Below, in pieces: positions 15,184 to 64,000 of a stretch of 64,000 bases of DNA. The stretch spans positions 62,735 to 126,734 of the forward strand of contig JABJCP010000009.1 in NCBI GenBank assembly GCA_018668595.1. The letters are read 5' to 3'. Below the pieces are notes generated by a model. That model ran no database searches and was not told where the DNA came from. It saw only the letters and a program-made list of their open reading frames with translations. The stretch is from Candidatus Woesearchaeota archaeon (lineage in GTDB: Archaea; Nanobdellota; Nanobdellia; Woesearchaeales; UBA11576). A program made the translations under genes and the position numbers. Within the stretch, counting starts at the first letter, position 1. Each line of letters begins with the position of its first letter.

Positions 15184-15211
15184 AATTTGAAAAATATTTG
15201 AAACTAATAAA

Positions 15212-18118: not shown

Positions 18119-18132
18119 ACTAAAAACAAAAA

Positions 18133-24189: not shown

Positions 24190-24238
24190 TGATTATTTAA
24201 TATTAAAAAATGATTAAAAAAAATTAAATAACTAAAAA

Positions 24239-26455
24239 ATGACAGAAGAAAATAAAAAAAATAACTCCAAAAAAGATTCAAGTAGAGATTTTAAACTTTC
24301 AAATCCTATTAAAAACATTCAAGATTTAAAAAATGAATCTAAAGAACTTAAATATTTAATAAAACATTTTGAAGAATTTAATCTTGATAAACCCGAATTA
24401 GAAGATTATGTTGTCAAAGTTTTAGATTCTAATGCGAGTATTTTAACTAAGAATATTTTAATAGAAGGAGATATTGATAAAAATTTAGTTGATGTAGTGA
24501 ATGATTCTAAGTTATTGTCTAATTTCTTAAAAAAGTTTGAACAATACTCTTTATTTTTTAGAGATAAGTTAGATCTACAATATGGGTTTAGAATTTCAAC
24601 AACTAAAGAATGGGGGGAATCATTAGAGCAGTTAGGTGTGGTTTTAACTGCAGATAATGAGATTAATTTTAAGAAGGAAGGATATGTGTCTAATGTTGCA
24701 CATAAACAATTTTTAGTTAATCTTAGAGATGATATTATTTCCAACCCAGAAACACTAGATTCTGATTATTATGGTTTGTTTAATGAGTTAATAAGAAAAT
24801 CTCATAATAAAGAGAGAATAGAGGACAGAGCATTACATTCTCTTTATTATTTAGGGGTAGACTTTGATTCAAAATACTCTTTGGAAAAAATTACTGATTT
24901 GTTACTTGGTTATAAAGATCATGAGATTTTAAAAAAATTTGGACAATCAGATGTCGCGTATAGTCCACCCGTGCTCGATCAAGTATTTAGGAAAATTATT
25001 AAATATATAAAACAAGGAGACTGTAATTCAATTAATGATTGTATTGAATGTGCTTCAATTAACATTTCCAACTACCAATTAATCTCAAAAATAGCAGAAG
25101 GTACTTCGAAGCGAGTCTACAAAGCTATTTACCAAAAACCAGGTTTCGATCCTATCACAGTTGCATTAAAGATCGTCAATAGAACTGATTTGCCTGATTC
25201 ATCTAATGTTGATAATCTTATTCAACGTTTTGGTTTGGAGGATATTACAAAAGGGGAAATTAATGCCATGTTGAAAACAAAAAATCCTTCTGTAGCTTCT
25301 ATTTATGATTTTGGAAAAACTAACAAAGGTAAACTGTACATTGCAGAAGAGTTTGTTGAAGGTGTTAGTTTAAGAGATGTAATAAATCAAAGACCTGTTC
25401 TTGAATCTGTTTTTAATAATTTATTTTCAATGAGTATTTCTGATGAAGAATTAGATTCAGGAAGGATAGATCTATCTGATCTTTTGCCAGATTCTTTTAA
25501 TTCGATTGAAGAAGAAAAATTAGTTGTGTCTGCGAAAGAAAAAAATTGCAGCAGATCTGAATTAAAAGATAAACTGCTTACTAAAAAACAAAATTTATAT
25601 TCTCAACGAGCATTATCCAATACTCGTTTTTCATCAAAATTTACATTTTCTAAAGAGAAATCAATTATGCGATATGTTGTCAAAGATGGAATTGTTTCTG
25701 AAGAAGACTATTTGACAAAAATTCCTGAGGATTTGGCAAGACTCAGTTTTTATTTTTCATTATTTGAAAAAATTTTAAAATCAGTCTATAAATTACATGA
25801 AGATAATTTAGTTCATTTAGATATTAAACCTGAAAATATAATTATAGGGGATGTTGTTAAATTGACTGATTTTCAAACTGCAGGTATTTTAGAAGATTTT
25901 TATGTTTCTGGTGCAAAAGGCGTGCATGGTTCAAAGCAGTATGCAGGTCCTGAATTGTTTTGGGATTCGAGTCCAGGAATACATTCAGATATTTATTCGT
26001 TAGGTATTATTTTTTATGAACTTCTTACGGGAGAACTTCCTTTTGGACCATATGATTCGAGAGAAAAAGCAAAAAAAGATCATGAATTAAATCATGAAGA
26101 TAATTTAGAAAAAGCTCTTGATAAATTAAACTTTTACAAGTCTGATGAAGTTAAATTTCTTTTTGAAAAAGTTTTGACTGATGATTCGACGAGTAGATAT
26201 GATTTAATGTCTACTTTTATTAGTCATTTTAATATGGTTCAGAATAGTTTATTTCAGGATTTTAGAGTGGATGTTGAAGGAATTCCTGTATTTGATGAAG
26301 ATTTGATAACATTATTTGAATTAAGACGTAAGTATGGTTTTGATGACCTTAATAAAATATTAAAATACACCAAGCATTTAGATATGACTGATCATGTACC
26401 TCTGCATGAGCCATCAGGAGGGGTTGATTATGGTGATTGGGATGATGAAGAATAA
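24239..26455 (+). CDS. Protein-kinase-like protein (HLDIKPEN present; DFG replaced by DFQ)
   Basis: The core reads HLDIKPENIIIGDVVKLTDFQTAG. It has an acidic C-terminus (DYGDWDDEE) and is a paralog of 15212..18118. Confidence 0.65.
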   Translation: MTEENKKNNSKKDSSRDFKLSNPIKNIQDLKNESKELKYLIKHFEEFNLDKPELEDYVVKVLDSNASILTKNILIEGDIDKNLVDVVNDSKLLSNFLKKFEQYSLFFRDKLDLQYGFRISTTKEWGESLEQLGVVLTADNEINFKKEGYVSNVAHKQFLVNLRDDIISNPETLDSDYYGLFNELIRKSHNKERIEDRALHSLYYLGVDFDSKYSLEKITDLLLGYKDHEILKKFGQSDVAYSPPVLDQVFRKIIKYIKQGDCNSINDCIECASINISNYQLISKIAEGTSKRVYKAIYQKPGFDPITVALKIVNRTDLPDSSNVDNLIQRFGLEDITKGEINAMLKTKNPSVASIYDFGKTNKGKLYIAEEFVEGVSLRDVINQRPVLESVFNNLFSMSISDEELDSGRIDLSDLLPDSFNSIEEEKLVVSAKEKNCSRSELKDKLLTKKQNLYSQRALSNTRFSSKFTFSKEKSIMRYVVKDGIVSEEDYLTKIPEDLARLSFYFSLFEKILKSVYKLHEDNLVHLDIKPENIIIGDVVKLTDFQTAGILEDFYVSGAKGVHGSKQYAGPELFWDSSPGIHSDIYSLGIIFYELLTGELPFGPYDSREKAKKDHELNHEDNLEKALDKLNFYKSDEVKFLFEKVLTDDSTSRYDLMSTFISHFNMVQNSLFQDFRVDVEGIPVFDEDLITLFELRRKYGFDDLNKILKYTKHLDMTDHVPLHEPSGGVDYGDWDDEE

Positions 26456-40359: not shown

Positions 40360-41472
40360 ATGGTAGATCCATCTTTGTTAGATGAAATTTTATTAATTCA
40401 TAACGCACTTGTTAAAGCTAGATTTCCTGAAAATGTGTTTGGAGAATTGAAAGCTTCAGAAAAAACAGATCAAGAAAGAGAACTAAAAACTACGTATAGA
40501 ACAATTCTAAAAAAAATTCATCCTGATAAATATGCACAAATTGAGCAGGCAAGTTATTTAGCACAAGAAGCAACATCGCTTGTCAACAATTTATACGAAA
40601 AAGCAAAAGCAAAAATAAATTCAAATTCTTATGGAGAAATTTTAAATGACAAATCAAGTTTTGGTGATGCAACTTCAATCGAAACAACTTTTGACTTAAA
40701 TGATTATTGTTATGAATTACTAAAAGATCCTGTGCAGGGAGATTTTTGTGATGTTTTTTTTGGAGTGCGAGAAAATGATTCAGGTCTTGAACATATTTGT
40801 TTCAAAGTTGTAGAAGATAAAAGCAATAATAGTTTACTTGAACGAGAAAAAGAAATTCTAACGTCAATTACCCATAAATCAATTCCAATTTTTCTTGATT
40901 CAGCCATACTTGAAGATGATAGACAAGCAAATATTCTCAGACGTGTAGAAGGAAGTTATGATTTGTATGAAGTTAAAGACCAATTTCCTGACGGAGTACC
41001 TCAAGAGCATGCAGTTTGGATTTTAGACAGATTACTTAGTGTTCTTGGTTACTTACACACAAATAAAATTATTCATGGAAGTATTGAACCGGGAAATATC
41101 TTAATTACTCCTCATAACCATAATGGATTTCTTATAGATTACACTTTAGGAATTAAAGAAGCAACAAAAACCAATTCAAAATATTTCGGAACAAATGATT
41201 ATAGTGCACCTGAAATTGAAAAAGGAGAATCACCTCATCCCTCATCTGACTTGTATTCTTTAGGAAAATCAATCATTTTTCTAATGGGTGGAAATAACAC
41301 AACGCCACTCGCGAACATTGATCCAAAATTAAATTCATACTTAGCAAATTTTGTAACAGAAGATCCATCGAGGAGAACTAATGATGCTTGGAAAGCATGG
41401 CATGAGCTAAAACAATTAAGAAAAGAGGTATTTGGAGCAGAGAATCAATTTTTAGAGCTTTGCTTAGATTAA
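40360..41472 (+). CDS. J-domain fused to a degenerate protein-kinase-like domain (pseudokinase)
   Basis: The J domain is YRTILKKIHPDKYA. The kinase-like core reads HGSIEPGNILI...LIDYTLG with an APE-like SAPE. Confidence 0.55.
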   Translation: MVDPSLLDEILLIHNALVKARFPENVFGELKASEKTDQERELKTTYRTILKKIHPDKYAQIEQASYLAQEATSLVNNLYEKAKAKINSNSYGEILNDKSSFGDATSIETTFDLNDYCYELLKDPVQGDFCDVFFGVRENDSGLEHICFKVVEDKSNNSLLEREKEILTSITHKSIPIFLDSAILEDDRQANILRRVEGSYDLYEVKDQFPDGVPQEHAVWILDRLLSVLGYLHTNKIIHGSIEPGNILITPHNHNGFLIDYTLGIKEATKTNSKYFGTNDYSAPEIEKGESPHPSSDLYSLGKSIIFLMGGNNTTPLANIDPKLNSYLANFVTEDPSRRTNDAWKAWHELKQLRKEVFGAENQFLELCLD

Positions 41473-49520: not shown

Positions 49521-49563
49521 CTCACTAAGAATTTGATTTTTTTCATTTTGAGGATTGACTAGA

Positions 49564-50253
49564 ATGGATAAGATAAAAAACAAATTGAAACAGGATCTTG
49601 ATAAAAAAAATAGGAGACATAATAGAAAAGCAAAACGTATGTCGACCAATATTTTATCAAAATTAAAAACAACAATACCTCCTCATAGAGAAATAACTAA
49701 TAAAAGTTCAAGAAGAATTATTGATGCGCTTAAAGAACAGTATAAACAGTATAATCAAGCAATTCTTGATGTTGGAGAAATTAGGGACGAGTATCAATTG
49801 CTTGTTAATGATGAGAGTGTTAGAAATCCATTTATTGTAAGTTCTGGTCTTGTAGATATAATAAGAAATGAAACTAAAAATTTAAATTCAAATGAAAAAA
49901 AAGCAAGACGCATTTATGATTGGATTGAAAAAAACATAGAGTATGGTAAAGGATTAAAAAAATATAGTAATTCTGAAGAAGTAATTAATCAGCGTCGGGG
50001 TGTTTGTGGTGAAATGGCTTTTGTATACGTCACAATGGCAAGATGCATTGGTTTAAAGTCTAGTTATGTTAGTGTAAGAAGAGATTATAGTGGAAAAAAA
50101 GTTCATCATGCTTGTGCTGTTGTGAGAACAGAAAGAGGTAATATTTTTGTTGATCCTGCATATCACACATATGATGTGAAACACAAGGATTACGAAGTAC
50201 TTAATGATGTTGAAGTTTTAGAAAGATTTAATCAATGGAGGGGAAGAGAATAA
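49564..50253 (+). CDS. Transglutaminase-like cysteine protease domain protein with N-terminal motif MDKIKNKLKQ
   Basis: The catalytic Cys motif is RRGVCGEMAFVYVTMARCIGL. The His/Asp part is HHACAVVRTERGNIFVDPAYH. Confidence 0.55.
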   Translation: MDKIKNKLKQDLDKKNRRHNRKAKRMSTNILSKLKTTIPPHREITNKSSRRIIDALKEQYKQYNQAILDVGEIRDEYQLLVNDESVRNPFIVSSGLVDIIRNETKNLNSNEKKARRIYDWIEKNIEYGKGLKKYSNSEEVINQRRGVCGEMAFVYVTMARCIGLKSSYVSVRRDYSGKKVHHACAVVRTERGNIFVDPAYHTYDVKHKDYEVLNDVEVLERFNQWRGRE

Positions 50254-52790: not shown

Positions 52791-54095
52791 ATGAATATTC
52801 CAAAAACAATTTTAGAGGATTTTAAACTTTGTGGAGAACCTTTTATTATTCGCTCTAATAGAATTTATACTTTAGAGTCTGCTCAAGGAGTATTTGACAA
52901 CAATGATTTTATTCAGTTTCTCGACAAAAAATATCCTTTGGAGAAATCTTTGTTAATTTCCAATTTAGAAAATCGTTATTTTTCTTTAAATGAAAAATAC
53001 ATTAATAGTTATTTGCAACACATCATTAAAAGAGATTATGTGAGTAAAGTAGAATCATCTCACGCAGCGTTGATTTCGCAGCACAATATTTATGAGCAAA
53101 ATAAATTATCTTCTGTTGAACATTTTATCAGATCGCAGGTTGTTCCACAATACGCAGAACTTGCTAAAGATTTTTTCCAGGTTAATTCAGATGTTCCTTC
53201 AAAGCCTAAAAAAATAAAAACTGTTAGTTCTGAAACATTTGATCCTGATATGTTTCGTTTTCCAGATATTTCTGATCTCTATTCAGAAAAAAGCATTCTT
53301 GAATCTGTGATGGGTTCATTTGTTAATTCAGATTTTATTTTTACTCTTGGTGGAAGATGCTATGTTTCGTCTACTTATGATAATTCTCCTTCAGAATTAG
53401 TAAAAATAAACAATAAAGTTCATTCATTAAAATATTTAAGTTCACTTAGTAATCTTGATAAGAATTATAAAACTGCAATAATCAGAAAGTTAAATTCTGT
53501 TGCAAAAAATCATGGAGAACAACTTATTCCTAAGATTCAAAAAAATTTAGATCAAATAAAAAATCTTGAATCTGCATTTGAGGTTCAAGATAAAACTGAT
53601 TTTGGTTCAATTGGTTACCAAAAAGTTAATAATGATAAATATAGAATTTACATTAATATAGTCCCTTTTATTGCTAAAATGAGGGGTAAATTTTTTCATT
53701 TTATAAAAACTAAAGTTGGAACTGATTTTTTAATTAAAAATAATTCTTTAGAAATTTTATCTGCACCTGTAGTTATTGAAAAAGAGCGCTATTATCATCC
53801 TTTTGTTAGTTCTAGTAATAGTATGTGTTATGGAGGTAATAAACGTTGGAAATTTACAGGTGTTGAGTTTTGTAAAAAGTATCATTTAGACTCAAAAGAA
53901 AATAGGCAAATTGCAGGTTATAAAGTCGCAGCAGTTTTGGCTGAAGGGTGGAAAGTTATTCATAGAGGGTATTTGAAATCAAATTCTCCAGATACTTATC
54001 ATCCCATATCTCATTTTCAAAATCGTGAAGTTTCAAAGCAAGCGGCAGATAATTTAGTAAACAGTGGTTTGAAACTTTATGTTCAGGATGAGTGA
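52791..54095 (+). CDS. E2/UBC-like protein, paralog 1, with a long N-terminal domain
   Basis: The C-terminal motif YYHPFVSSSNSMCYGG has the same H-P-x-[VI]-x5-[IM]-C spacing as the UBC active site HPNI-x5-IC. It is paralogous to 58413..59702. Confidence 0.45.
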   Translation: MNIPKTILEDFKLCGEPFIIRSNRIYTLESAQGVFDNNDFIQFLDKKYPLEKSLLISNLENRYFSLNEKYINSYLQHIIKRDYVSKVESSHAALISQHNIYEQNKLSSVEHFIRSQVVPQYAELAKDFFQVNSDVPSKPKKIKTVSSETFDPDMFRFPDISDLYSEKSILESVMGSFVNSDFIFTLGGRCYVSSTYDNSPSELVKINNKVHSLKYLSSLSNLDKNYKTAIIRKLNSVAKNHGEQLIPKIQKNLDQIKNLESAFEVQDKTDFGSIGYQKVNNDKYRIYINIVPFIAKMRGKFFHFIKTKVGTDFLIKNNSLEILSAPVVIEKERYYHPFVSSSNSMCYGGNKRWKFTGVEFCKKYHLDSKENRQIAGYKVAAVLAEGWKVIHRGYLKSNSPDTYHPISHFQNREVSKQAADNLVNSGLKLYVQDE

Positions 54096-54206: not shown

Positions 54207-54626
54207 ATGAGCTTACTATATTTAAGATTAGACGCATCTTTTGCAGAGACTACAACTCTTGTGAAAAGAATTCCAGAATCAAAGCTTGACGAAACAATAG
54301 AGTCTCTTATTTTGTACATGTGTGATACTTCTCCAGATGTTCTTAATCCAGAACTAATAGATCATGCGAATAGTTGTTATTCTTTTAAAGAAGTTAGGTT
54401 GGCACAAAATATAGAAGATAGTATTGAAACAATTCAAGAAGACAACCCCGCATTTGTTTCGCCTTTAAAATTATATTCTCTTGTTGGGGATATTCCTGTT
54501 ATTATGGCATCTCACAAAACATTAGCAAATAAGTCTCTTGCAGAATATAAAAATAAAATCATAACAACAAAAAAATTAGATAATGAATCTTACAAAATAA
54601 TTGATTTGATATTAAAAACTGTTTAA
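54207..54626 (+). CDS. Ubl-like small protein, divergent copy with no C-terminal GG
   Basis: MSLLYLRLDASF...YMCDTSPDVLNPEL...SCYSFKEV aligns with the other small paralogs. Confidence 0.4.
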   Translation: MSLLYLRLDASFAETTTLVKRIPESKLDETIESLILYMCDTSPDVLNPELIDHANSCYSFKEVRLAQNIEDSIETIQEDNPAFVSPLKLYSLVGDIPVIMASHKTLANKSLAEYKNKIITTKKLDNESYKIIDLILKTV

Positions 54627-54638
54627 GGTGGTTGGAAA

Positions 54639-55709
54639 ATGAATGAAATTAAAAAACTTGAAACTGTAATTGGCACAGAAGATGTTAAACTTAATGAAGA
54701 ATCTGTAATTGAAGATTTATTCGAACAGACAGGTAATTTTTTTAATGATGTGTTTATTAAAAGTAGGGTTGGGCCAAATACTAAATTAAATCATAAAAAA
54801 ATATCATCAAATAAATATTCTATTTCGATAGATTTAGAAGATTATATTCTTAAGAAGAATGATAGATATTTTAAGTTTGATAAAGTGACAATTGGCTTAG
54901 ATATTTTATTTGATAAAGAGTCAATTCAATTTTTAAGAGCTACTAAAATTAAATTAGGAAAAAAATATGATCATCCTTTTGTATTTAATGATAATTCTAT
55001 TTGTTATGGGGGTGGCTTAAGGTGGAGACTTGTTGGTGTTGATTTTGGAAAAAAATATTCTATTAAAACAGATGAAGAAAAAAATAATGCTGCTTGGAAA
55101 ACCTGTCTTGTTTTAACAGAAGGTGCTAAGGTGCTACACGAAGTACATGGTGATCAAGTCATACCTGTTAATAATTTAATGAATAGATTTTCTGATAGAG
55201 AAATATGTAAAAACAAAGCAGAATTATCTGGTTTAATTATTTATGGTGCTGAATCATCAACTAAAAAAACTCAGGAGTTACCTAACTCTAGTAATTTATA
55301 TATTAGATTGGACGGAGCTTTTGCAAACAAAGTTATTCTTGCAAAACGAGTTCCTGAAACAATTTTATCAGAGCCGTTGGATGAGGTTATTAGGTATATG
55401 TGTAATCCGACTTCGGATGAATTGAATGAAGAGCTCGAGGATAATCCTAGTAGTTGTTATACTGAACAAGAAGTTAGCACTGCGAAATTATTTCAAGAAG
55501 CATTTGATGAAGGAATTAATTCTCCGAATAAATCATTCGAGGTTCAGGCAATTAGTGTCGACGGAAATTCGCTGATTTATCTTGGCAGAGATGCTGATTT
55601 GAAAACTGTAACTCTCGATTCTAAACGTAGTGAAATTCTTATGGAAGAACATATCGATGAAGGAAATTATAATTTGATTGATCTTAAAGGAACTTATGTT
55701 AGTTGTTAA
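54639..55709 (+). CDS. Fusion protein with an E2/UBC-like core followed by a C-terminal Ubl-like domain
   Basis: The N-terminal part carries KYDHPFVFNDNSICYGGGLRWRLVGVDFGKKY. The C-terminal part (NLYIRLDGAFANKVILAKRVPET...) is about 80% identical to the free Ubl paralogs and ends ...DLKGTYVSC. Confidence 0.45.
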   Translation: MNEIKKLETVIGTEDVKLNEESVIEDLFEQTGNFFNDVFIKSRVGPNTKLNHKKISSNKYSISIDLEDYILKKNDRYFKFDKVTIGLDILFDKESIQFLRATKIKLGKKYDHPFVFNDNSICYGGGLRWRLVGVDFGKKYSIKTDEEKNNAAWKTCLVLTEGAKVLHEVHGDQVIPVNNLMNRFSDREICKNKAELSGLIIYGAESSTKKTQELPNSSNLYIRLDGAFANKVILAKRVPETILSEPLDEVIRYMCNPTSDELNEELEDNPSSCYTEQEVSTAKLFQEAFDEGINSPNKSFEVQAISVDGNSLIYLGRDADLKTVTLDSKRSEILMEEHIDEGNYNLIDLKGTYVSC

Positions 55710-55713
55710 TAAA

Positions 55714-56643
55714 ATGACTCGCGCTGCTATTTTAATCGGATCGTTGGAAAGTTTTCAAAAAGAGGAGTTTGCAGATCCTATGAAAGAATCTTTTGCAAAG
55801 ATTGGACTCGATTCAATTATTGTACCCTTAAATAAAATAGAAGAGTTAAATAAAGTAGATATTGTTTATACTCTGCCTCATAGTATTCAGGTTGATCTTT
55901 CGTTCTTAGATGAAAAAAATATTCCTATTATTAATTCGCATAGGTCTCATTCGCTTTCTAAAAATAAAATGGAAAGTAGTGATGTATTTATCAAAAATAA
56001 TATTCCAACTCCGGATACTATAACAACAGATTCTCAAGATGAATTAATTAATTTCATAAATAAACACAATAAAATTATTTTGAAGCAACCTGATATTTGT
56101 GCAGGCTATGGGCACATGATTGTTGAAAAAATCAATAACAATTATTTTGCATGGAATAATGATTCAAAAGGCGAGTTTGATTTTTCAAATCCTAATTTTG
56201 TTAAAGCAAATAAACGAGTTTTTGCACAGCCGTATTATGCACAAGATTTTATTTCTGATTTTAATCCTGATAATATTGTGTCTGTTTATAGAGCATATGT
56301 TATCGGAAATAATGTTCCTATGGCAACTGCAAGAGTTGGTAAAGATCAGCCCATTGTTAATGTTGCAAGGGGTGCACATTATGAATTTGTTACTCCTGAT
56401 AAAAAAATGAAAGAAATTGCATTAAAGACTGCAGATAGTATTGGTTTTGAAGTTGGAGTTGTTGATTTATTAAAAGATAAAAATCAAAATTATTTTGTTA
56501 TTGAATGCGATTGCGATGGTCTTACATTAGTTGTTTGTAGAAAGTTTAGAAAATTGAAAGAGTTTGAAGATAAATATGATTTTGATCAGCACATTGGCAG
56601 AAGATTAATTGAAATTGTAAATGGAGAATCTTATAGAACTTGA
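55714..56643 (+). CDS. ATP-grasp ligase (RimK-like)
   Basis: ILKQPDICAGYGHMIV fits vvKP..GS.G.GV. YRAYVIGNNVPMATARVGKDQPIVNVARGA fits the RimK D.Rv.vvG...a..R......tN...Gg pattern. EVGVVDLL...YFVIECD is also present. Confidence 0.55.
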   Translation: MTRAAILIGSLESFQKEEFADPMKESFAKIGLDSIIVPLNKIEELNKVDIVYTLPHSIQVDLSFLDEKNIPIINSHRSHSLSKNKMESSDVFIKNNIPTPDTITTDSQDELINFINKHNKIILKQPDICAGYGHMIVEKINNNYFAWNNDSKGEFDFSNPNFVKANKRVFAQPYYAQDFISDFNPDNIVSVYRAYVIGNNVPMATARVGKDQPIVNVARGAHYEFVTPDKKMKEIALKTADSIGFEVGVVDLLKDKNQNYFVIECDCDGLTLVVCRKFRKLKEFEDKYDFDQHIGRRLIEIVNGESYRT

Positions 56644-56650
56644 TTATTTC

Positions 56651-56779
56651 CTCGTCGGAACTCTTCCGCTTTTTAACATACAACCCTTATTAAATTCAAT
56701 ATTGCGTTTATATTTGTTTAGTGGGAGAACTTAAATTAAAAAGTAAAAATACATCTAAACTAGATTGAGATATACAAAA
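56651..56779 (+). promoter_or_regulatory. Conserved ~130-bp promoter/5'-leader module (copy 1) upstream of a Ubl gene, with three palindromes
   Basis: It contains CGGAActcTTCCG and TTTAGtgggagaaCtTAAA (imperfect in this copy), then CATCTAaacTAGATt immediately 5' of the start codon. Confidence 0.45.
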
Positions 56780-57205
56780 ATGAAAAATTTATACATTAGA
56801 TTAGACGGAGCTTTTGCAGATAAAGGCGTTCTTGCAAAAAAAGTTAGTGAGAATTTACTTTTAGAAACATTAGATACTGTTATTATGTGTATGTGTGACT
56901 CTACTCCTGATGAGTTTAATCATGAATTAGCTGAGAATCCTGGTAGTTGTTATACTGCGCAGGAAGTTAGAAAAGCCGAACTTATTGAAGAAGCACTAGA
57001 CGATGGACTTAATTATTGTATTACTGTTAAGGTTGATGCGCTTAGTGTAGGCGGAAATTCTTTAGTAGAACTTGGAAGAAATGGTGAACTAAGAACTGCT
57101 ACAATTGCCGATAAGAAAAATGAAATTCTTAGAAAACTTGATCTTGATGGTAAACAATATTATATTGTAGATCTTAAGATGTCTTATTTATGCCCTGGGG
57201 GTTAG
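56780..57205 (+). CDS. Ubl-like small protein ending in a free Gly-Gly (…YLCPGG*)
   Basis: It begins MKNLYIRLDGAFADKGVLAKKV and ends at stop TAG directly after GG. The start at 56780 was chosen by alignment with the paralogs; the track used an upstream TTG. Confidence 0.5.
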   Translation: MKNLYIRLDGAFADKGVLAKKVSENLLLETLDTVIMCMCDSTPDEFNHELAENPGSCYTAQEVRKAELIEEALDDGLNYCITVKVDALSVGGNSLVELGRNGELRTATIADKKNEILRKLDLDGKQYYIVDLKMSYLCPGG

Positions 57206-57216
57206 ATTCAAGTATC

Positions 57217-57350
57217 TCCTCGGAATCCTTCCGAATTTTAACACGTAATCATTATTAAATTCAATATTGATTTTATACTTATTTAGGGGGAAAACCTAAA
57301 TTATATGTAAAAAATAAAAATACATCTAAACTAGATGGATGCATATGAAA
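57217..57350 (+). promoter_or_regulatory. Promoter/5'-leader module, copy 2
   Basis: It contains CGGAAtccTTCCG, TTTAGGgggaaaaCCTAAA and CATCTAaacTAGATG (57323..57337). Confidence 0.45.
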
Positions 57351-57803
57351 ATGGAAAATTTATACATTAGATTAGACGGAACATTTGCAGATAAAGTTGT
57401 TTTTGCAAAACGAGTTTCTGAAACAATTTTATCAGAGCCGTTGGATGAGGTTATTAGGTATATGTGTGATTCTTCTCCTGATGATTTAAATAAAGAAATT
57501 GAAATAGATTATTGTTTTGATATGAATCAAGATTACATCAAAGACAGTGGTTATACAGCGCAGGAAGTTAATAATGCAAATATTATTGAACATTTTTTGA
57601 ATCAAGATATTAGATCGGACAATATTTGTGCAGAAATTCATGCTATTAGTAAGGATAAAAATTCGCTTGTTTATTTAGGTAAAACAAACAAGCTTAAAAA
57701 TGTTAATCTTGCTTCAAAAAAAAAATATTTGTTACAAAAAGAAAAAATAGGTGGCGAAAATTATTTCATTATTGACCTTAAGTTTAATTTGCTTTGCATG
57801 TAG
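57351..57803 (+). CDS. Ubl-like small protein with a divergent C-terminus (…LLCM*)
   Basis: It begins MENLYIRLDGTFADKVVFAKRVSETILSEPLDEVIRYMCD. The start was aligned to the paralog starts. Confidence 0.45.
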   Translation: MENLYIRLDGTFADKVVFAKRVSETILSEPLDEVIRYMCDSSPDDLNKEIEIDYCFDMNQDYIKDSGYTAQEVNNANIIEHFLNQDIRSDNICAEIHAISKDKNSLVYLGKTNKLKNVNLASKKKYLLQKEKIGGENYFIIDLKFNLLCM

Positions 57804-57842
57804 ATTGCAAGGTTTAGTATACTGCAGTTTTATTACTCTCTC

Positions 57843-57976
57843 CTCGGAACTCTTCCGCTTTTTAACACACAATCCTTATTAAATTCAATATAACATTTAT
57901 ACTTATTTAGGGGGAGAACCTAAATTATATGTAAAATAAGTAAAAATACATCTAGATTAGATGGAGGTATATAAAA
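57843..57976 (+). promoter_or_regulatory. Promoter/5'-leader module, copy 3
   Basis: It contains CGGAActcTTCCG, TTTAGGgggagaaCCTAAA and CATCTAgatTAGATG (57949..57963), followed by a GGAGG SD. Confidence 0.45.
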
Positions 57977-58411
57977 ATGGGAAATCTATACGTTAGATTG
58001 GATGGAGCTTTTGCAAACAAAGTTGTTCTTGCAAAAAAAGTTCCTGATACAAAGTTATCAGAACCGCTCGAAGATGTTATTAGGTATATGTGTGATCCAA
58101 CTCCGGACGCATTAAATGAAGCGCTTGCAGATAATCCTGGTAGTTGTTATACTGCGCAAGAAGTTAGCAATGCATCTTTGATTGAAGAAGCTTTAGAAGA
58201 TGGGCTTAATAGTGAGAATTCTTCGTTTGAAGTTCAAGCAGTTAGTCTTGACGGTAATTCAATGGTTTATCTTGGCAAGGATAATGAATTAAGAAGTGCA
58301 AATATAGCATCTAAGCAAAACGATATTCTTAGAGACGAAAATTTTGATGGAGAGGTTTACAAGCTTGTAGATCTTAAAGGAGTTTATGTTGGAGTTGGTG
58401 GTAAACTTTAA
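57977..58411 (+). CDS. Ubl-like small protein ending GG-KL (…VGVGGKL*), a precursor-like C-terminus
   Basis: It begins MGNLYVRLDGAFANKVVLAKKVPDTKLSEPLEDVIRYMCDPTPD. A GGAGG SD lies upstream. Confidence 0.5.
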   Translation: MGNLYVRLDGAFANKVVLAKKVPDTKLSEPLEDVIRYMCDPTPDALNEALADNPGSCYTAQEVSNASLIEEALEDGLNSENSSFEVQAVSLDGNSMVYLGKDNELRSANIASKQNDILRDENFDGEVYKLVDLKGVYVGVGGKL

Positions 58412-58412
58412 A

Positions 58413-59702
58413 ATGCAAAATTTAAATACTTTTTTAAATAGTTTTAAGCTCGCTGGAGAACCTTTTTTTATTAGAGGTGACAGGCTCTATACTTTAGAGC
58501 TTTCAAATGGTTTTTGTAACAGCGAGCAGTTTTTATCTTTAATGGAGCGAAAATATCCTCTAGAAAGATCAGTTGATATTAGCAATCTGGAGTATACCTC
58601 TTTTCTCAAACAAAAAAATTCAATTTTAAATTTTATGGAAAAACACATTAGAAATAATTTTATCAGTAAACTTGAAAGTTCAGAAAAAAAGGTAATTCGT
58701 GCAAGTGGTTTGTATGAACAAAATAGACTTTCTTCTATTGAACGATTTATTCGTGAAAAAATAATTCCTGAATATGCTGAAGTTGCAAAGCGTTTTTTAG
58801 ATGATAAATCAATAAAAACACCTAACCTTATAAAAAAAGTTTCAAAGGTTAAAGCAGAATCTTTTGATGTTAATAGTTTTGTTTGGCCAGGTATTGAAGA
58901 CTTAAAATCAGATATTAGTAGGTTGGATAAAATAATTGAAAAAGAAGGCGTTTTAATTGTTGGTGGTCGCTGTTATTCTGCATCTCGTTCAAAATCAAAA
59001 TCTTTATCTGATTATGTTAAAGCTGGAAGTTCTTTTTATAGTTTAGATTATATGTGTTGTGTTGATGAATTGGATAAAATTTACAAACAAGAATTAGTTA
59101 AGTTTTTTCAAGATACTTCAAATAAGCAGGGTAATATTTTAGTTCCTTTAATTAAGCAAAATAACCAAAAATTATCTAACTTAACAGATGCTGTTAATAA
59201 ATCTGTTGATCAAAAATTTGGAAATATTGGTTATAAGTGTGTTAGTGAACATAAGTATCAAATTTTTCTTAAGTTTAATCCGTTTATTATAAAAAAAGAT
59301 GATCAATACTATAAATTTCCTGAATTAAAATTAGGAACTGATTTAATTATCAAGAACAATATGCTTGAAATTGTAGCAGCACCTCAAGTTTTGGGTTCTA
59401 AACCATATCTTCATCCTTTTGTTTGGTCTGATAAACGCATTTGTTATTCTGGTGATACTAAACGTTGGCATTTTATAGGTATCGATTTTGGAAAAAAATA
59501 TCCTATAAATTCTGAACAAAATCAAAATGATGTTGCTTGGAAAGTCGCATTAGCTCTTTCAGAGGGTTTTAAGGTTATTCATAAAGGATATATTGGAAAT
59601 AAAATTATTCCTGTTAATAACTTACATTCTAGTTGTAAGTCTCGCAAAATTTCTTATTCAGAAATATCGCCCTCAAAATTAAAGGTGTATAACAATGATT
59701 AA
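58413..59702 (+). CDS. E2/UBC-like protein, paralog 2
   Basis: It carries YLHPFVWSDKRICYSGDTKRWHFIGIDFGKKY. The N-terminus MQNLNTFLNSFKLAGEPFFIRGDRLYTLE aligns with 52791 (MNIPKTILEDFKLCGEPFIIRSNRIYTLE). Confidence 0.45.
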   Translation: MQNLNTFLNSFKLAGEPFFIRGDRLYTLELSNGFCNSEQFLSLMERKYPLERSVDISNLEYTSFLKQKNSILNFMEKHIRNNFISKLESSEKKVIRASGLYEQNRLSSIERFIREKIIPEYAEVAKRFLDDKSIKTPNLIKKVSKVKAESFDVNSFVWPGIEDLKSDISRLDKIIEKEGVLIVGGRCYSASRSKSKSLSDYVKAGSSFYSLDYMCCVDELDKIYKQELVKFFQDTSNKQGNILVPLIKQNNQKLSNLTDAVNKSVDQKFGNIGYKCVSEHKYQIFLKFNPFIIKKDDQYYKFPELKLGTDLIIKNNMLEIVAAPQVLGSKPYLHPFVWSDKRICYSGDTKRWHFIGIDFGKKYPINSEQNQNDVAWKVALALSEGFKVIHKGYIGNKIIPVNNLHSSCKSRKISYSEISPSKLKVYNND

Positions 59703-60969
59703 TAAAAACAATAACAAATATGGTTCATCAAACAATAGTATAGATGAAGAAATTCAAAAACTTATAGGACCTATTAGAATTACTCGTGAAGCATTAGAAA
59801 AAGGTAAATTAATTGCAAAGCGTACTTGTGATATTGCAAAAAAATTTAATCTTGGAACTTTAGAAATTTATTTGTATAATCTTAATCCTATTGATAAACA
59901 AGAAAAAGGCGATTATGCTATTAGAGATTTGTACATTGCACATGAGCAAACTGTTTCTGCTATTAATTGCGAGGTTGGTGCTCAAGGTCAAATAATGTCC
60001 CGAGATATAGCTTATCAAGAGCATAATATGTATACTATTGGTTGGTCTCATTCTCATGGAGATCTAGGGGTTTTTGTTTCAGGAACTGATGATAATAATA
60101 CTAAAAATGTTGTCAAATTTTTAGGAATAGCGTCAGGGATTGATTTATTGGAAGAGTGTGGTTCAATTAATTATGAGAATATGGAAAACAAAATTACTTT
60201 TTTAGATGGATCGCAGTATTTTATTAGTGCAGAAACATCAAAAGATAAAGAGCTTGTTGAAGGTTTATTTGAAACTATTTTAAAATCAAATCCGTTAACA
60301 ATTCATACAAAGAAAAAAAAGTTTTTTAATTGGACTCCTAGTTTTGTTTTTAATTCTAAAGGAGATTTTCATCCTTTTATGGCATATTATTTAGATAGAA
60401 ATATGATGTTGGTTGATGGTTGTTCTTATGAAATTTTGGAGGAGAATAATGGCATATGTCTTGATCCGCAAGTTATTGATGAGGAAATAATTACTCGAGT
60501 TAGAGAACTCAACTTCATTAAAAATAAAAAAACGCCAGAAACTAAAAAAACTCAATCAAAATTGTACAATTTATTTTTTAAAAAAGCTGAAGAATTTGAC
60601 AAGAATCATGATAAACTCAAAGAGTATATTAAAAATAAACAGAATTCTAACCGTACTTCTAAACGAGAGTGGAAAAAAGAATCTGGTTTATCTAAAAACA
60701 TTCAAGAATCTGTTGTTGAAATGGGTGATCTTTTAGATCATTGTGAAAATGAGTTAGGGACAAATATTAGTGATGATGAACTTGCTAAAATAAAACAAGT
60801 TTATCTTGCAAGGCAGCAGCAGATTAAAGAAGCTCAACCATTAATAGAACAAAGAATTGATTCACTTTGTAATGAAGCTAACTCTCGTAATTATGTTAAG
60901 AACCACGGGTTGATTGATATGTATGAATCTATTTTAAAAAATTCTTTAGGAGGAGATATTGATGCCTAA
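59695..60969 (+). CDS. JAMM/JAB (MPN+) metallopeptidase
   Basis: The full JAMM motif E…HSHGDLGVFVSGTD (HxHx7Sx2D) is present. Confidence 0.6.
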   Translation: MINKNNNKYGSSNNSIDEEIQKLIGPIRITREALEKGKLIAKRTCDIAKKFNLGTLEIYLYNLNPIDKQEKGDYAIRDLYIAHEQTVSAINCEVGAQGQIMSRDIAYQEHNMYTIGWSHSHGDLGVFVSGTDDNNTKNVVKFLGIASGIDLLEECGSINYENMENKITFLDGSQYFISAETSKDKELVEGLFETILKSNPLTIHTKKKKFFNWTPSFVFNSKGDFHPFMAYYLDRNMMLVDGCSYEILEENNGICLDPQVIDEEIITRVRELNFIKNKKTPETKKTQSKLYNLFFKKAEEFDKNHDKLKEYIKNKQNSNRTSKREWKKESGLSKNIQESVVEMGDLLDHCENELGTNISDDELAKIKQVYLARQQQIKEAQPLIEQRIDSLCNEANSRNYVKNHGLIDMYESILKNSLGGDIDA

Positions 60970-62509
60970 TGAAGTTATTGCAGATATTAATAATCGTAAT
61001 CATTTAGCATGGAGTATTGATAAATCTATTAATATGGATTATTCAAAAAAATTAGCTGATTTAGAAAAAAATAAAACTGGTTTAAGTCAAGGGGTTTACG
61101 ATCAAAAGAAATTAGGTTTATTAGAAGAAAAAAAAGCAGAGTTAAGCAAGCTAGGAGAAGAAAGAATAAATTTATTAAATAATTTAAAAATAATGGTTCT
61201 TGGTTCAGGACCTCTTGCGCAATTTGTTAGCGGAGGGTTAATGGGTTTAGGTATTGGAACTATTTATGTCGTCGGTAATGAGATTGTTTCACGAAATGAT
61301 AGTTATGATTTTTTAGTAACTAAAGAATCAAATCTTGGAAAATCAAAAGTAGACGAAATTGTGGCTAGGATGAACGAAATTAATGATTATAATAATTTTG
61401 TTCCTGTTTTTTCAAGATTTAGTTCTGCTTTAACTAATTCATTTTATCCTTCGGATATGATTATTGATGCGACAAACTCGTCTGTTTCAAAAAATAAAGT
61501 TTTGAGATATTGTATTGATAACAAGATTCCTTTAATTTCTGCATCATCTAGTTTTAGAAATTCAAGAGTTTCTTCTTACAAACCAAACTCTGCACCTATT
61601 AGACTTAAAGATTCAGTTAATTTGGAAGCAGTTATTCACCAAGAACTTGATGGTCTTTCTCAAGACATTGTGAGTTCTGGAATTATTGCAGGAATTATTT
61701 TAGAGGAAGTTAGAAAGCAAAAGTTTTCTATGTCAAAAACAGATTTTCCTCTTAAAAATTTTCAAGTTGTAAATTATAATCCTTATTCTAAAACAAGAAA
61801 TAATAAGTTGAGAGATCTACCCAAATGTGCTAAAACTTATGCAAATAAACGTGTTTTAGTCGCAGGAGCAGGAGCGCTAGGTAATTTTGTTGCAATGGAA
61901 CTTGCTTTGTTAGGGGTTGGACAATTGGATATTTTAGATATGGATTCTGTTGAGGTTTCAAATCTTAATCGTCAAATTAATTTTGATAAGTCAAATATTG
62001 GTAAGGAATACAAAAAAGCAACAGTTCTTTTTGATCGTTTAAAAAAATTAAATCCATCTATTAATGGAACTGGAATAGTTGCAAAACTTGAAATGACTTC
62101 GGATAATTTGATTAAAGAAGGCAACTATGATGTTTTACTTGGTTGTTTTGATAATAAGATTGCAAGACAAACTTTAGATCATTTTGCGGAAAAATATAAT
62201 ATTCCTTATGTTGACGGAGGTTGTTCGACAAACGCAGGCCAGGTTGTTTCATTTATTCCTGGTTATAACCAGAAGGTCACTGAACAGGTTAATTTTCCAG
62301 ATCCTTCTAATAGTGGTAATCAGGTAGGTTGTGCTATTGTAGCTCAAGCTAATCCTAGTATTATTACTTCAAATGCAATTATTGGCAGTGCAACTGTTGC
62401 AGAGGCTTTAAAGATTTTATCAGGGCAAAATTATGGGGATGTTGGAGGTTCTTTTAACTATCGTAGTAATTCTCCTGACCGTATTTGGTTGGATCCTTAT
62501 GTTCCTTAA
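60959..62509 (+). CDS. E1-like (ThiF/MoeB/UBA) activating enzyme with tandem Rossmann domains (N-terminal degenerate, C-terminal active)
   Basis: The N-terminal domain reads IMVLGSGPLAQFV with no SNLNRQ. The C-terminal domain reads RVLVAGAGALGNFVAMELALLGVGQLDILDMDSVEVSNLNRQ. GGCSTNAGQV lies downstream. Confidence 0.65.
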   Translation: MMPNEVIADINNRNHLAWSIDKSINMDYSKKLADLEKNKTGLSQGVYDQKKLGLLEEKKAELSKLGEERINLLNNLKIMVLGSGPLAQFVSGGLMGLGIGTIYVVGNEIVSRNDSYDFLVTKESNLGKSKVDEIVARMNEINDYNNFVPVFSRFSSALTNSFYPSDMIIDATNSSVSKNKVLRYCIDNKIPLISASSSFRNSRVSSYKPNSAPIRLKDSVNLEAVIHQELDGLSQDIVSSGIIAGIILEEVRKQKFSMSKTDFPLKNFQVVNYNPYSKTRNNKLRDLPKCAKTYANKRVLVAGAGALGNFVAMELALLGVGQLDILDMDSVEVSNLNRQINFDKSNIGKEYKKATVLFDRLKKLNPSINGTGIVAKLEMTSDNLIKEGNYDVLLGCFDNKIARQTLDHFAEKYNIPYVDGGCSTNAGQVVSFIPGYNQKVTEQVNFPDPSNSGNQVGCAIVAQANPSIITSNAIIGSATVAEALKILSGQNYGDVGGSFNYRSNSPDRIWLDPYVP

Positions 62510-62522
62510 GTAGGTGTGTTTT

Positions 62523-64000
62523 ATGGCGAAGAAAAAAAAAAATAATCTAAAACAGGGAAAAAAAGTAGGAAAAAATAGAACGGAATTGTCTAAAAAAAAA
62601 AGAAAGCCATTTGAAAATAAATTAGATAAACTCAATAAACCTTTTTCAGAAGACAGTTCTTCGCAAGAACTTTCGTTACACAAAGATTATTCTAAACTAG
62701 ATTGGTTTTCTTTAAATGAGAAATTTGAATATGAACTTAATAAACTAGATATAAACCCTATTAATATGGAATTATTTAATTATGTTAGATCTGATTTATA
62801 TTGTGTTAAATCTGAATTAATAAATAGGAATTTAAGCAGTAGAGTAATTCTTGATAGAAATTATGATTTGGAATTGTTAATTAAAAAAGAGATTAAGCCA
62901 AAAGTTACTATTGATATTACTGATGATTCAATTGAAAAAAGCAAATTAATTGCAAAAAAACTCGTCGATCTTGGTAAAGCAGCAGGTTTAGGAAAGAATG
63001 AGATATATTTGGCAGGAGTTTGTGATAAATCCAACTATGATAAAGATGATTTTATTGTTGAGGATATTTATATTGTTCCTGATCAGGTTTGCTCTAATGA
63101 GCGATGCGAATTTCCAAGTACGGGCAAGTTTAAAATGCTTGATGAGTTGGATAAATTAAAAAAAGTTCCGATTATGTGGATTCATTCTCATTGTGATGAT
63201 ACTTATTTTTCTCCTGACGATAAAGATAATTTATTTAATCTGGTCAGATTTGATGGTTTTCTAAAAGAGTTGTCTTATGAATTATTGGATGAAAAATCGA
63301 GTTTAATTTTCAAATGTTATCCTGCAATTGTTGTTTCAGGAATAAATGATGCTGAAACTTTTGGAGTGCAGTTATTAAGAAAACCAAAAATTTATGACAA
63401 AGATTCTAAAAAAATATCTGAGATTAAAGAAAAATCCACAGTATTATTGACTGGGGCAGATATTTCAGTAAACATTCATAAGTTGGATGTTAAAATTAGT
63501 TTAGATGAAATTTTAATTCAAAAAGAATTGGTAAATAAAGTTACAATTAAAAGATATAATTCTATTCATAAATTATCTGATTATTATGATTGCAATCTAA
63601 AATTAATAAATTCTGCTGAACCAAAATATGTCGAAGAGCCGTCTACAAAAATTAAGGATAGTTTGGCTAATAGAGATGGGCAAAGAGCTCAACAAAAAGC
63701 ACAAGAAGAAAAAGTAAAAACATCAGGCATTCTTGGTAGATTAAAATCTGAACCTGTTGATGAAATTTCTGATTCAAGTTCATATGAACATACTGTTGCA
63801 ATTATTAAAAAAGACTTGCCAATATGTAGTGCTAATTCAGATTTAGTTAATGAAATTAAAAAACCTCGGGATGAATATTATGTTGGAGATTCATTTAAAA
63901 TTACGCATATTGATGTGAATAGGGGTTCTTTTGTTTTTAATAATAAAGAGTATTTCCTAAAATTCGATAATGAAAATATTAAACCATTTTTAGATTTATT
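62523..64000 (+). CDS. Second JAB/JAMM-like protein, 3'-truncated by the window edge and absent from the ORF track; paralogous to 59695 in its N-terminal region
   Basis: Manual translation gives MAKKKKNNLKQG... with EIYLAGVCDKSNYDKDDFIVEDIYIVPDQ and WIHSHCDDTYFSPDD (HxH-x6-S-x2-D). It shares IT.e..EK.KLIAK...LG..EIYL with the first JAB. An AGGTG SD lies upstream. Confidence 0.5.
   Translation, partial: MAKKKKNNLKQGKKVGKNRTELSKKKRKPFENKLDKLNKPFSEDSSSQELSLHKDYSKLDWFSLNEKFEYELNKLDINPINMELFNYVRSDLYCVKSELINRNLSSRVILDRNYDLELLIKKEIKPKVTIDITDDSIEKSKLIAKKLVDLGKAAGLGKNEIYLAGVCDKSNYDKDDFIVEDIYIVPDQVCSNERCEFPSTGKFKMLDELDKLKKVPIMWIHSHCDDTYFSPDDKDNLFNLVRFDGFLKELSYELLDEKSSLIFKCYPAIVVSGINDAETFGVQLLRKPKIYDKDSKKISEIKEKSTVLLTGADISVNIHKLDVKISLDEILIQKELVNKVTIKRYNSIHKLSDYYDCNLKLINSAEPKYVEEPSTKIKDSLANRDGQRAQQKAQEEKVKTSGILGRLKSEPVDEISDSSSYEHTVAIIKKDLPICSANSDLVNEIKKPRDEYYVGDSFKITHIDVNRGSFVFNNKEYFLKFDNENIKPFLDL

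What the first reader, a model, noticed from the sequence alone, without database searches (positions are those of the whole stretch)
60959..62509. Pseudo-dimeric single-chain E1 (degenerate then active adenylation domain), as in eukaryotic Uba1
Most prokaryotic ThiF/MoeB-type E1s are single-domain homodimers. Here two Rossmann-fold repeats are fused in one chain. The first lacks the SNLNRQ/ATP-binding residues. The second is intact. This is the inactive-then-active arrangement of eukaryotic canonical E1s.
Basis: partly seen in the sequence, partly recalled or inferred. Interest (0 to 1): 0.5.

Follow-up and report, generated by a model that had tools for sequence, protein, structure and literature searches.

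The report
Two-domain archaeal ubiquitin-activating-type enzyme
This gene from a tiny (DPANN) archaeon encodes an E1-type activating enzyme built from a dead copy followed by a live copy of the same domain, as in eukaryotic ubiquitin E1s and bacterial BilD. It belongs to a large family of ubiquitin-like tagging gene clusters for which I found no published description.

Summary
ORF 60959-62509 (516 aa; database start ATG 60962) contains two ThiF/E1 adenylation domains. Residues 60-258 match ThiF on their own (Pfam E 9.5e-16) but have lost the ATP/Mg residues. Residues 295-516 keep all of them.

It differs from both BilD and UBA1:
- There is no inserted catalytic-cysteine domain. The candidate cysteine, C458, sits on a short flexible crossover loop, as in UBA5 and ThiF.
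- There is no ubiquitin-fold domain.
- This copy has lost the zinc site.
- A conserved N-terminal arginine (R13) aligns with the trans-acting Arg14 of MoeB.

The window comes from a Woesearchaeota genome. At least 150 sequence clusters share the architecture, mostly in DPANN archaea. They usually sit next to an E2-like protein (YxHPF-x7-C), JAB peptidases and small proteins with GG tails.

The pseudo-dimer arrangement itself has been known in prokaryotes since BilD (2023-24). I therefore rate this a new variant of a known kind, with moderate interest.

The parts
60959..62509 (+). E1 gene (516 aa from TTG 60959; probable start ATG 60962, 515 aa). It overlaps the stop of the upstream JAB gene.
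60995..60997 (+). R13, the candidate trans-acting arginine finger on the N-terminal helix of the inactive domain (motif R-[QN]-x3-W)
   Evidence: R in 139/155 family members. The family 'RydRq' motif aligns with MoeB R11-Y-N-R14-Q15.
61016..61156 (+). Helical-hairpin insertion of about 47 residues (aa 20-66) between the Arg-finger helix and the first strand. Found only in this subclade (about 10 of 155).
   Evidence: AF2 helices 22-37 and 44-74, pLDDT >90. Length distribution.
61136..61732 (+). Inactive adenylation domain (IAD), aa 60-258. It has a ThiF fold but lacks the ATP/Mg residues: GSGPLA 61202-61219, G106, D117, F118, N173.
61733..61840 (+). Interdomain linker, aa 259-294
61841..62506 (+). 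Active adenylation domain (AAD), aa 295-516. Motifs: GAGALG 61865-61882, D327-x-D329 61937-61945, SNLNRQ 61958-61975, K353 62015-62017, D398 62150-62152.
62255..62356 (+). Short crossover loop (aa 433-466) carrying C458 (62330-62332), the candidate catalytic cysteine. No CYS-domain insertion and no CxxC zinc motif in this copy.
   Evidence: pLDDT <50 for aa 452-462. C in 153/155 members, and in 24/25 members that lack both zinc motifs.
59695..60969 (+). JAB/JAMM peptidase 1 (HSH-x7-S-x2-D), a likely Ubl-processing or deconjugating enzyme
   Evidence: Pfam Prok-JAB E 2.4e-4. Conserved next to the E1 in most loci.
62523..64000 (+). Second JAB-like gene (HSHCDDTYFSPDD), cut off by the window end
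58386..59702 (+). E2-like protein B (438 aa), with a C-terminal UBC-like core and motif Y-x-H-P-F-x7-C
52791..54095 (+). E2-like protein A (434 aa); conserved Cys346 at 53826-53828
54639..55709 (+). Fusion of an E2-like core with a Ubl-like domain (356 aa)
57977..58411 (+). Ubl-like protein ending ...GVGGKL. Candidate E1 substrate after removal of KL.
56765..57205 (+). Ubl-like protein ending ...CPGG at the stop codon. Candidate E1 substrate.
57339..57803 (+). Ubl-like paralogue without a GG tail
54207..54626 (+). Ubl-like paralogue without a GG tail
55678..56643 (+). RimK-like ATP-grasp ligase inside the cluster. Its role is unknown and it is unique to this locus.

Best explanation
The gene encodes a single-chain, pseudo-dimeric E1 (Ubl-activating enzyme) of a DPANN archaeon.

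Shown here:
- An N-terminal ThiF-fold domain that has lost the nucleotide/Mg residues packs against a C-terminal, fully equipped adenylation domain. The geometry is that of the IAD-AAD core of BilD and UBA1.
- The gene sits in a co-directional cluster with three E2-like proteins, two JAB peptidases and five small Ubl-like proteins. The E2-like/JAB/E1 cassette recurs in about 70 of 90 related loci.

Inferred mechanism:
1. A JAB peptidase trims a Ubl precursor (for example ...GVGG|KL) to expose Gly-Gly.
2. The AAD binds Mg-ATP and adenylates the Ubl C-terminus. R13 from the IAD N-terminal helix completes the active site in trans, as MoeB Arg14 or the IAD arginine of canonical E1s does.
3. C458 on the flexible 34-residue crossover loop attacks the adenylate to give an E1~Ubl thioester. 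No separate mobile CYS domain is involved.
4. The Ubl passes to the conserved Cys of an E2-like protein (YxHPF-x7-C) and then to targets.
5. The JABs reverse the modification.

The IAD acts as a structural partner and arginine donor, which replaces the second subunit of homodimeric E1s.
For: Two ThiF domains.

Motif loss and retention, and their conservation over 155 relatives.

Model quality: pLDDT 91.7, pTM 0.93.

Fold matches:
- Foldseek: top 50 hits are all UBA7, Uba1 or UBA6.

Arginine finger: R13 is conserved in 139/155 members and aligns with MoeB R14.

Candidate catalytic cysteine: C458 is conserved in 153/155 members, is independent of the zinc motifs, and lies in the only low-confidence loop.

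Cassette conservation.

E2-like motif: Cys in 76/81 instances, with the same H-to-C spacing as UBC, and hhalign to UBE2D2 lands on HPN..C.

Other partners:
- JAMM motifs.
- GG tails on Ubl-like proteins here, in L002 and in L086.
Against: - Nothing biochemical has been tested.
- Three of the five Ubl-like paralogues lack Gly-Gly.
- A cysteine at this loop position also exists in MoeB and ThiF, where it is not a classical E1 thioester site.
- 99 of 155 relatives keep the end-of-strand-2 Asp in the IAD. Residual nucleotide binding by that domain in some members is therefore not excluded.
Confidence: 0.8

Rival explanations
1. Adenylation-only E1. The enzyme makes the Ubl-adenylate, but no E1~Ubl thioester forms. 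The E2-like cysteine, or another nucleophile, attacks the adenylate directly, as proposed for the cysteine-less BubCD. C458 would then be structural.
For: There is no CYS domain and no UFD. BubCD shows that prokaryotic E1s can lack a catalytic cysteine (PMC11601596). MoeB has a cysteine at the same loop position without using it for a thioester (established knowledge).
Against: C458 is kept in 153/155 relatives, including 24/25 that have lost the zinc cysteines. It also lies on a flexible loop, as in UBA5 and ATG7.
Confidence: 0.12
2. A MoeB/ThiF-like sulfur-carrier or cofactor-biosynthesis adenylyltransferase that happens to be duplicated, with no protein conjugation.
For: The best sequence matches of both halves are ThiF, MoeB and Uba4.
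Against: All NCBIfam ThiF/MoeB/UbaA scores lie far below their cut-offs (166 bits against 275). There is no rhodanese domain and there are no thiamine or molybdopterin genes nearby. The gene is tightly linked to E2-like and JAB genes in about 70 of 90 loci.
Confidence: 0.04
3. A peptide- or RiPP-modifying enzyme of the MccB/PaaA type. It would act on the paralogous small proteins as precursors, together with the ATP-grasp ligase and peptidases.
For: The cluster has multiple paralogous small proteins and an ATP-grasp gene. MccB and PaaA are ThiF-fold enzymes and appear among the hits.
Confidence: 0.03
4. Both domains are catalytically active, giving two activation sites in one chain.
For: The first domain keeps two of the three loop glycines and a lysine equivalent to K353.
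Against: R338, Q339, N335, D327 and the Mg-binding D398 are all replaced (D, F, D, G and N respectively). The replacements are family-wide, for example N in 144/155 at the D398 position.
Confidence: 0.01

Closest known systems
BilD, the E1 of bacterial Bil (type I/II BilABCD) anti-phage operons (PDB 8TYZ)
   Different: BilD has an alpha-helical CYS domain of about 80 residues in the crossover loop, and a four-cysteine zinc site. Here the loop has 34 residues, the cysteine sits on the loop itself, and this copy has no zinc motifs (most relatives do). Structure-based identity is only 15%. BilD is not among the best 60 PDB sequence hits of either half. The host is an archaeon. The E2 partner is a protein of about 430 aa with a YxHPF..C motif.
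Canonical eukaryotic E1s (UBA1, UBA6, UBA7; heterodimeric SAE1-UBA2 and NAE1-UBA3)
   Same: It shares the IAD-then-AAD core. UBA1 aligns over 420 residues at rmsd 2.5 Å and 19% identity, and all of the top 50 Foldseek hits are of this class. The IAD profile also detects SAE1 and NAE1.
   Different: It has no FCCH, SCCH/CYS domain, four-helix bundle or C-terminal ubiquitin-fold domain. It is half the size. The cysteine is on the crossover loop.
Homodimeric non-canonical E1s and E1-like enzymes (MoeB, ThiF, Uba4, UBA5, ATG7, archaeal UbaA)
   Same: These are the best sequence matches of each half. They share the short crossover loop with its cysteine. Most relatives share the MoeB-type CxxC plus C-terminal cysteine zinc site. 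They also share the N-terminal RxxRQ arginine motif.
   Different: Those enzymes are single-domain homodimers with two active sites. Here the partner is fused and inactivated.
Archaeal E1-like enzymes of Caldiarchaeum and Asgard ubiquitin operons
   Same: They are archaeal, are linked to E2-like and JAMM genes, and are presumed to act in protein conjugation (PMC5654768).
   Different: Those are described with one adenylation domain and a cysteine-bearing insert of about 60 residues (PMC11354881), and they come with a RING E3 and a ubiquitin close to the eukaryotic one. The Helarchaeota hit found here (L068) matches only the AAD half.
BubCD and Cap2 (bacterial JAB-E1 and E2-E1 fusions)
   Same: They have a ThiF-type adenylation domain in Ubl-like conjugation operons, and they give sequence and fold matches here.
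   Different: Both dimerise through a single adenylation domain. BubCD lacks a catalytic cysteine. Their fused domains are a JAB or an E2, not a second adenylation domain.

Membership tests
ThiF/MoeB/E1 adenylation superfamily (Pfam PF00899) | Rossmann-like adenylation fold scoring above the Pfam threshold | tested here: met
   Both halves pass. The C-terminal half contributes to 200.7 bits for the whole protein, and the N-terminal half scores 58.1 bits alone (cut-off 28.1).
ThiF/MoeB/E1 adenylation superfamily (Pfam PF00899) | GxGxxG, Asp at the end of strand 2, the NxxRQ arginine, a Lys, and the Mg-binding Asp | tested here: met
   All are present in the C-terminal domain (G303/305/308, D327, R338, K353, D398) and invariant in the family. 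The N-terminal domain lacks most of them.
Canonical (eukaryote-type) E1 | Inactive and active adenylation domains forming a pseudo-dimer | tested here: met
Canonical (eukaryote-type) E1 | Arginine from the inactive domain completing the ATP site | tested here: inconclusive
   R13 is conserved (139/155) and aligns with MoeB R14. Its distance to the active site could not be measured.
Canonical (eukaryote-type) E1 | Catalytic cysteine on a separate mobile domain (SCCH/CYS) inserted in the crossover loop | tested here: not met
   The crossover segment has 41 residues here and 33-51 in 151/155 relatives.
Canonical (eukaryote-type) E1 | C-terminal ubiquitin-fold domain that recruits the E2 | tested here: not met
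   The protein ends about 25 residues after the last core helix, with only a short beta hairpin.
BilD (Bil operon E1) | IAD-AAD single chain | tested here: met
BilD (Bil operon E1) | Alpha-helical CYS domain of about 80 residues carrying the catalytic cysteine | tested here: not met
BilD (Bil operon E1) | Structural zinc bound by two crossover-loop cysteines and two C-terminal cysteines | tested here: not met
   Absent in this protein. Both motifs are present in 85/155 relatives.
BilD (Bil operon E1) | Sequence-level membership in the Bil families | tested here: inconclusive
   PADLOC returned only Cap2 E1-E2 models in the rows shown. BilD is not in the best 60 PDB sequence hits. No BilD sequence was available for a direct profile comparison.
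BilD (Bil operon E1) | Operon with a Ubl, an E2 and a JAB peptidase | tested here: met
   E2-like and JAB genes are adjacent in about 70 of 90 loci. Ubl-like proteins with GG tails are present. The fold evidence for the Ubl and E2 is weak.
Homodimeric E1-like enzymes (MoeB/ThiF/UbaA equivalogs) | Score above the curated NCBIfam cut-off, with a single-domain architecture | tested here: not met
   The best match is ThiF at 166 bits against a cut-off of 275. The protein has two domains.
Any E1 | ATP-dependent adenylation and thioester formation with a Ubl | not testable with these tools
   This needs biochemistry.

The most novel reading that the evidence does not exclude
This may be the minimal form of a canonical E1: a fused dead-plus-live adenylation pair with a trans arginine and a loop cysteine, but no CYS domain and no UFD. 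It would belong to a widespread Ubl/E2-like/JAB/E1 conjugation system that I could not find described, found in DPANN archaea and also in Desulfobacterota, Methylomirabilota and Binatia. About 30 of the 90 loci also carry a ClpX-like AAA+ ATPase. The system would either be an evolutionary intermediate between MoeB-type homodimers and BilD or eukaryotic E1s, or an independent third invention of the pseudo-dimer.
Probability: 0.35. Interest if true: 0.7.

Novelty: new variant of a known kind. Interest (0 to 1): 0.52.

Why it matters
The inactive/active adenylation pseudo-dimer was long treated as a hallmark of eukaryotic E1s. BilD showed in 2023-24 that bacteria have it too.

This family places the arrangement in archaea, in a stripped-down form that combines a canonical-type core with a non-canonical loop cysteine. 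That gives a natural test of which canonical E1 features are needed once the partner subunit is fused and inactivated. It also adds a data point on whether the arrangement arose once or several times.

It also marks out a large set of apparent protein-tagging operons in organisms with very small genomes. Their targets and purpose are unknown.

Tried and rejected
- Word-indexed homologue searches with the E2-Ubl fusion and with E2-like protein B found only the query itself. Their alignments therefore had to be built from window paralogues and locus ORFs.
- A tblastn search of plasmids, meant to recover BilD homologues for a direct comparison or phylogeny, returned only MoeB/ThiF-type genes. No phylogeny relative to BilD or eukaryotic E1s was made.
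- PADLOC and NCBIfam gave no named system for any partner protein.
- hhalign of the Ubl-like alignment against ubiquitin was not significant.
- hhalign of the E2-like alignment against UBE2D2 matched only the 23-residue HPN..C stretch (E 0.043).
- Literature searches for DPANN, Woesearchaeota or Pacearchaeota together with ubiquitin or E1 terms found no description of this family in the held library. That library is incomplete.
- A phage origin, considered at first because of the 29% G+C, was dropped. The protein is identical to one annotated in a Candidatus Woesearchaeota assembly and seen on contigs of up to 677 kb.
- I considered that the first MAFFT alignment showed loss of the N-terminal arginine motif. 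A larger alignment showed that R13 is that motif, displaced by a helical insertion.
Full report
**What is at the coordinates.** A single intact + strand ORF runs from 60959 (TTG) to 62509 and encodes 516 aa. An ATG follows immediately at 60962, and the identical public protein (P0001, 515 aa) starts there. That protein is annotated only as a hypothetical protein of a Candidatus Woesearchaeota archaeon and has been seen on contigs of up to 677 kb. The window (28-32% G+C, no tRNA genes) is therefore from a DPANN archaeal chromosome, not a phage.

**Checking the observation.**
- Pfam ThiF matches the protein twice. Scanned alone, the N-terminal 287 residues still match ThiF over residues 60-212 at E 9.5e-16 and 58 bits, twice the curated cut-off.
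- Against solved structures, the N-terminal half alone finds Uba4 (4.5e-10), MoeB (7.7e-6) and Uba1. A 25-sequence profile of this half finds MoeB at 1.6e-23, ThiF at 2.2e-20, and the eukaryotic inactive subunits SAE1 (1.7e-10) and NAE1 (1.5e-9).
- The two halves align to each other at E 3e-6, 20% identity over 139 residues.
- That alignment maps each catalytic residue of the second domain onto the first: G303/G305/G308 to G82/G84/A87, D327 to G106, D329 to E108, N335 to D114, R338 to D117, Q339 to F118, K353 to K130, and the Mg-binding D398 to N173.

**Fold.** With a 61-sequence alignment, AlphaFold2 gave mean pLDDT 91.7 and pTM 0.93. The only stretch below 50 is residues 452-462.
- The top 50 Foldseek hits are all single-chain eukaryotic E1s (UBA7, Uba1, UBA6), at E about 1e-22 over about 580 columns.

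The two domains are therefore predicted to pack as the IAD-AAD pseudo-dimer of canonical E1s.

**What it has and what it lacks.**
- There is no inserted cysteine domain. The segment corresponding to the crossover region is 41 residues here and 33-51 residues in 151 of 155 relatives. BilD has an insertion of about 80 residues at this point, and eukaryotic E1s have the SCCH domain (bioRxiv 10.1101/2023.09.26.559546).
- There is no ubiquitin-fold domain. The chain ends with a short hairpin.
- Most relatives carry a MoeB-like CxxC in the crossover region (118/155) and a C-terminal CxC or CxxC (97/155). This protein and 24 others have lost both.
- One cysteine, C458, lies in the flexible loop. It is conserved in 153/155 relatives and in 24 of the 25 zinc-less ones. 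It is therefore not a zinc ligand, and it is the obvious candidate for the thioester cysteine, as in UBA5, ATG7 and ThiF.
- At the N-terminus, R13 (R in 139/155, followed by Q or N, with W five residues later) belongs to the RxxRQ motif. In the profile alignment this motif falls on MoeB L10-R11-Y12-N13-R14-Q15. From established knowledge of MoeB and of canonical E1s, this arginine reaches into the partner's ATP site. Here the partner is the fused active domain.
- In this subclade (about 10 of 155), a confidently predicted helical hairpin of about 47 residues (aa 20-66) is inserted after that motif. This insertion is why a first, smaller alignment seemed to show the motif missing.

**Family and distribution.**
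- A profile of 18 close relatives, searched with HMMER against 1.84 billion representative proteins, gave 916 hits at E ≤ 1e-30. The best 150 (E ≤ 1e-83) are mostly 400-600 aa, and 141 of them match the two-domain profile in one stretch, most over nearly its whole length.
- In these relatives the AAD motif residues are invariant or nearly so, and the IAD equivalents are replaced. Examples are N in 144/155 at the D398 position and F in 109/155 at the Q339 position.
- A scan of one genome per GTDB species returned 80 loci. The stronger matches are almost all DPANN: Nanoarchaeota, Woesearchaeota, Pacearchaeota, Nanobdellota, Aenigmatarchaeota and the complete AR15 chromosome. Several bins are labelled Methanosarcinales and one Patescibacteria. 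Weaker two-domain matches lie in Desulfobacterota, Methylomirabilota and Binatia.
- No NCBIfam model reaches its cut-off (ThiF 166 bits against 275).

**Context.** The E1 is the second-to-last gene of a co-directional, partly overlapping cluster:

| Coordinates | Product |
|---|---|
| 52791-54095 | E2-like A |
| 54207-54626 | Ubl-like |
| 54639-55709 | E2-like core fused to Ubl-like |
| 55678-56643 | RimK-like ATP-grasp |
| 56765-57205 | Ubl-like |
| 57339-57803 | Ubl-like |
| 57977-58411 | Ubl-like |
| 58386-59702 | E2-like B |
| 59695-60969 | JAB peptidase with a perfect HxH-x7-S-x2-D motif |
| 60959-62509 | E1 |
| 62523 to window end | second JAB-like gene |

- Iterated HMMs on all ORFs of the 90 fetched loci find an E2-like and a JAB gene beside the E1 in about 70 of them.
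- The E2-like proteins share Y-x-H-P-F-x7-I-C (Cys in 76 of 81 instances). The His-to-Cys spacing is the same as in the HPN...C motif of UBC enzymes, and hhalign against UBE2D2 aligns exactly that stretch (E 0.043).
- Two of the five Ubl-like paralogues end in GG (...CPGG at the stop, and ...GVGGKL). Relatives in L002 (...PGGG plus extension) and in bacterial L086 (...QEGG plus extension) do likewise.
- I treat the Ubl and E2 assignments as probable, not proven.

**Mechanism.** Steps marked as shown or inferred.
- Shown: the architecture, the motif pattern, the conservation and the gene linkage.
- Inferred:
  1. A JAB peptidase exposes Gly-Gly.
  2. The AAD adenylates the Ubl, with R13 acting in trans.
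  3. The loop cysteine C458 takes the Ubl as a thioester.
  4. The Ubl passes to the E2-like cysteine and then to targets.
  5. The JABs reverse the modification.
- The main rival is an adenylation-only E1 as in Bub (PMC11601596). The near-invariance of C458 argues against it but does not exclude it.
- A sulfur-carrier role and a RiPP-type role are unlikely on context.

**Comparison and novelty.** The closest known thing is BilD, which has the same fused IAD-AAD and the same operon logic (Ubl, E2, JAB, E1). This protein fails two BilD-defining features, the CYS domain and (in this copy) the zinc site. It shares no detectable specific sequence similarity with BilD, and it occurs in archaea. Relative to eukaryotic E1s it has only the adenylation core. 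Relative to MoeB, ThiF and UBA5 it has the loop cysteine, but a fused dead partner instead of a homodimer.

What may be new is this minimal variant and its large, mostly DPANN family. I found no description of it in the held literature. The 2006 catalogue of prokaryotic E1/E2/JAB operon types lists nothing matching it (PMC1779556).

I could not make the phylogeny relative to BilD and eukaryotic E1s, because no BilD sequences could be retrieved. Whether the pseudo-dimer arose once or independently stays open. One hint points toward a separate or more recent duplication: the IAD profile resembles active MoeB and ThiF much more than it resembles eukaryotic IADs.

**Verdict.** I rate it a new variant of a known kind, of moderate interest.

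Noticed in passing
window 12490-26455 (+) and 40360-41472 (+): Five tandem genes (897, 968, 1096, 921 and 738 aa) each carry a Hanks-type Ser/Thr protein-kinase domain (Pfam Pkinase E 1e-18 to 1e-33; one also has HEAT repeats). A sixth gene is a DnaJ-kinase protein. This is an unusual kinase array for a small DPANN genome.
   Followed up: no
window 55678-56643 (+): A RimK-family ATP-grasp ligase (Pfam RimK 1.9e-12; NCBIfam below cut-offs) sits in the middle of the Ubl/E2-like cluster. It was found in none of the other 90 related loci. Its substrate is unknown.
   Followed up: partly
window 54207-58411 (+): The locus shows local expansion, with five Ubl-like paralogues and three E2-like genes where most loci have one or two. 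Three of the Ubl-like copies lack a Gly-Gly tail, and one is fused behind an E2-like core (54639-55709).
   Followed up: partly
window 49555-50253 (+); also L002, L003, L011, L022, L039: A transglutaminase-like (papain-fold) protein recurs a few genes upstream of the cassette in several DPANN loci. It could be an extra peptidase or ligase of the system.
   Followed up: partly
window 62523-64000 (+): A second JAB-like gene (HSHCDDTYFSPDD) lies directly after the E1 and runs off the window end. Homologues follow the E1 in L001 and L002.
   Followed up: partly
L086 2352-7759 (Desulfarculales MAG), with similar arrangements in about 25 bacterial loci; the AAA gene also in DPANN loci L005, L009, L029, L036, L040, L055: Bacterial relatives of the two-domain E1 sit in a six-gene cassette: a 146-aa protein ending ...QEGGANLPGRKDLGC, an E2-like protein, a 220-aa protein, a ClpX-like AAA_2 ATPase, a JAB-like protein and the E1. 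This hints at a link between this tagging system and an unfoldase.
   Followed up: partly
family members such as P0003, P0004, P0006 (alignment A1 columns about 425-490): About 25 of 155 relatives carry an insertion of 30-60 residues, predicted helical by sequence, between K353 and D398 of the active domain. This is a different site from the CYS-domain insertion of BilD and eukaryotic E1s, and it has no conserved cysteine.
   Followed up: no
L007/L008 (Desulfobacca-type contigs): One bacterial two-domain relative (P0035, 445 aa) sits next to an HTH-cupin regulator with no E2-like or JAB genes nearby. Not all family members are in conjugation cassettes.
   Followed up: no
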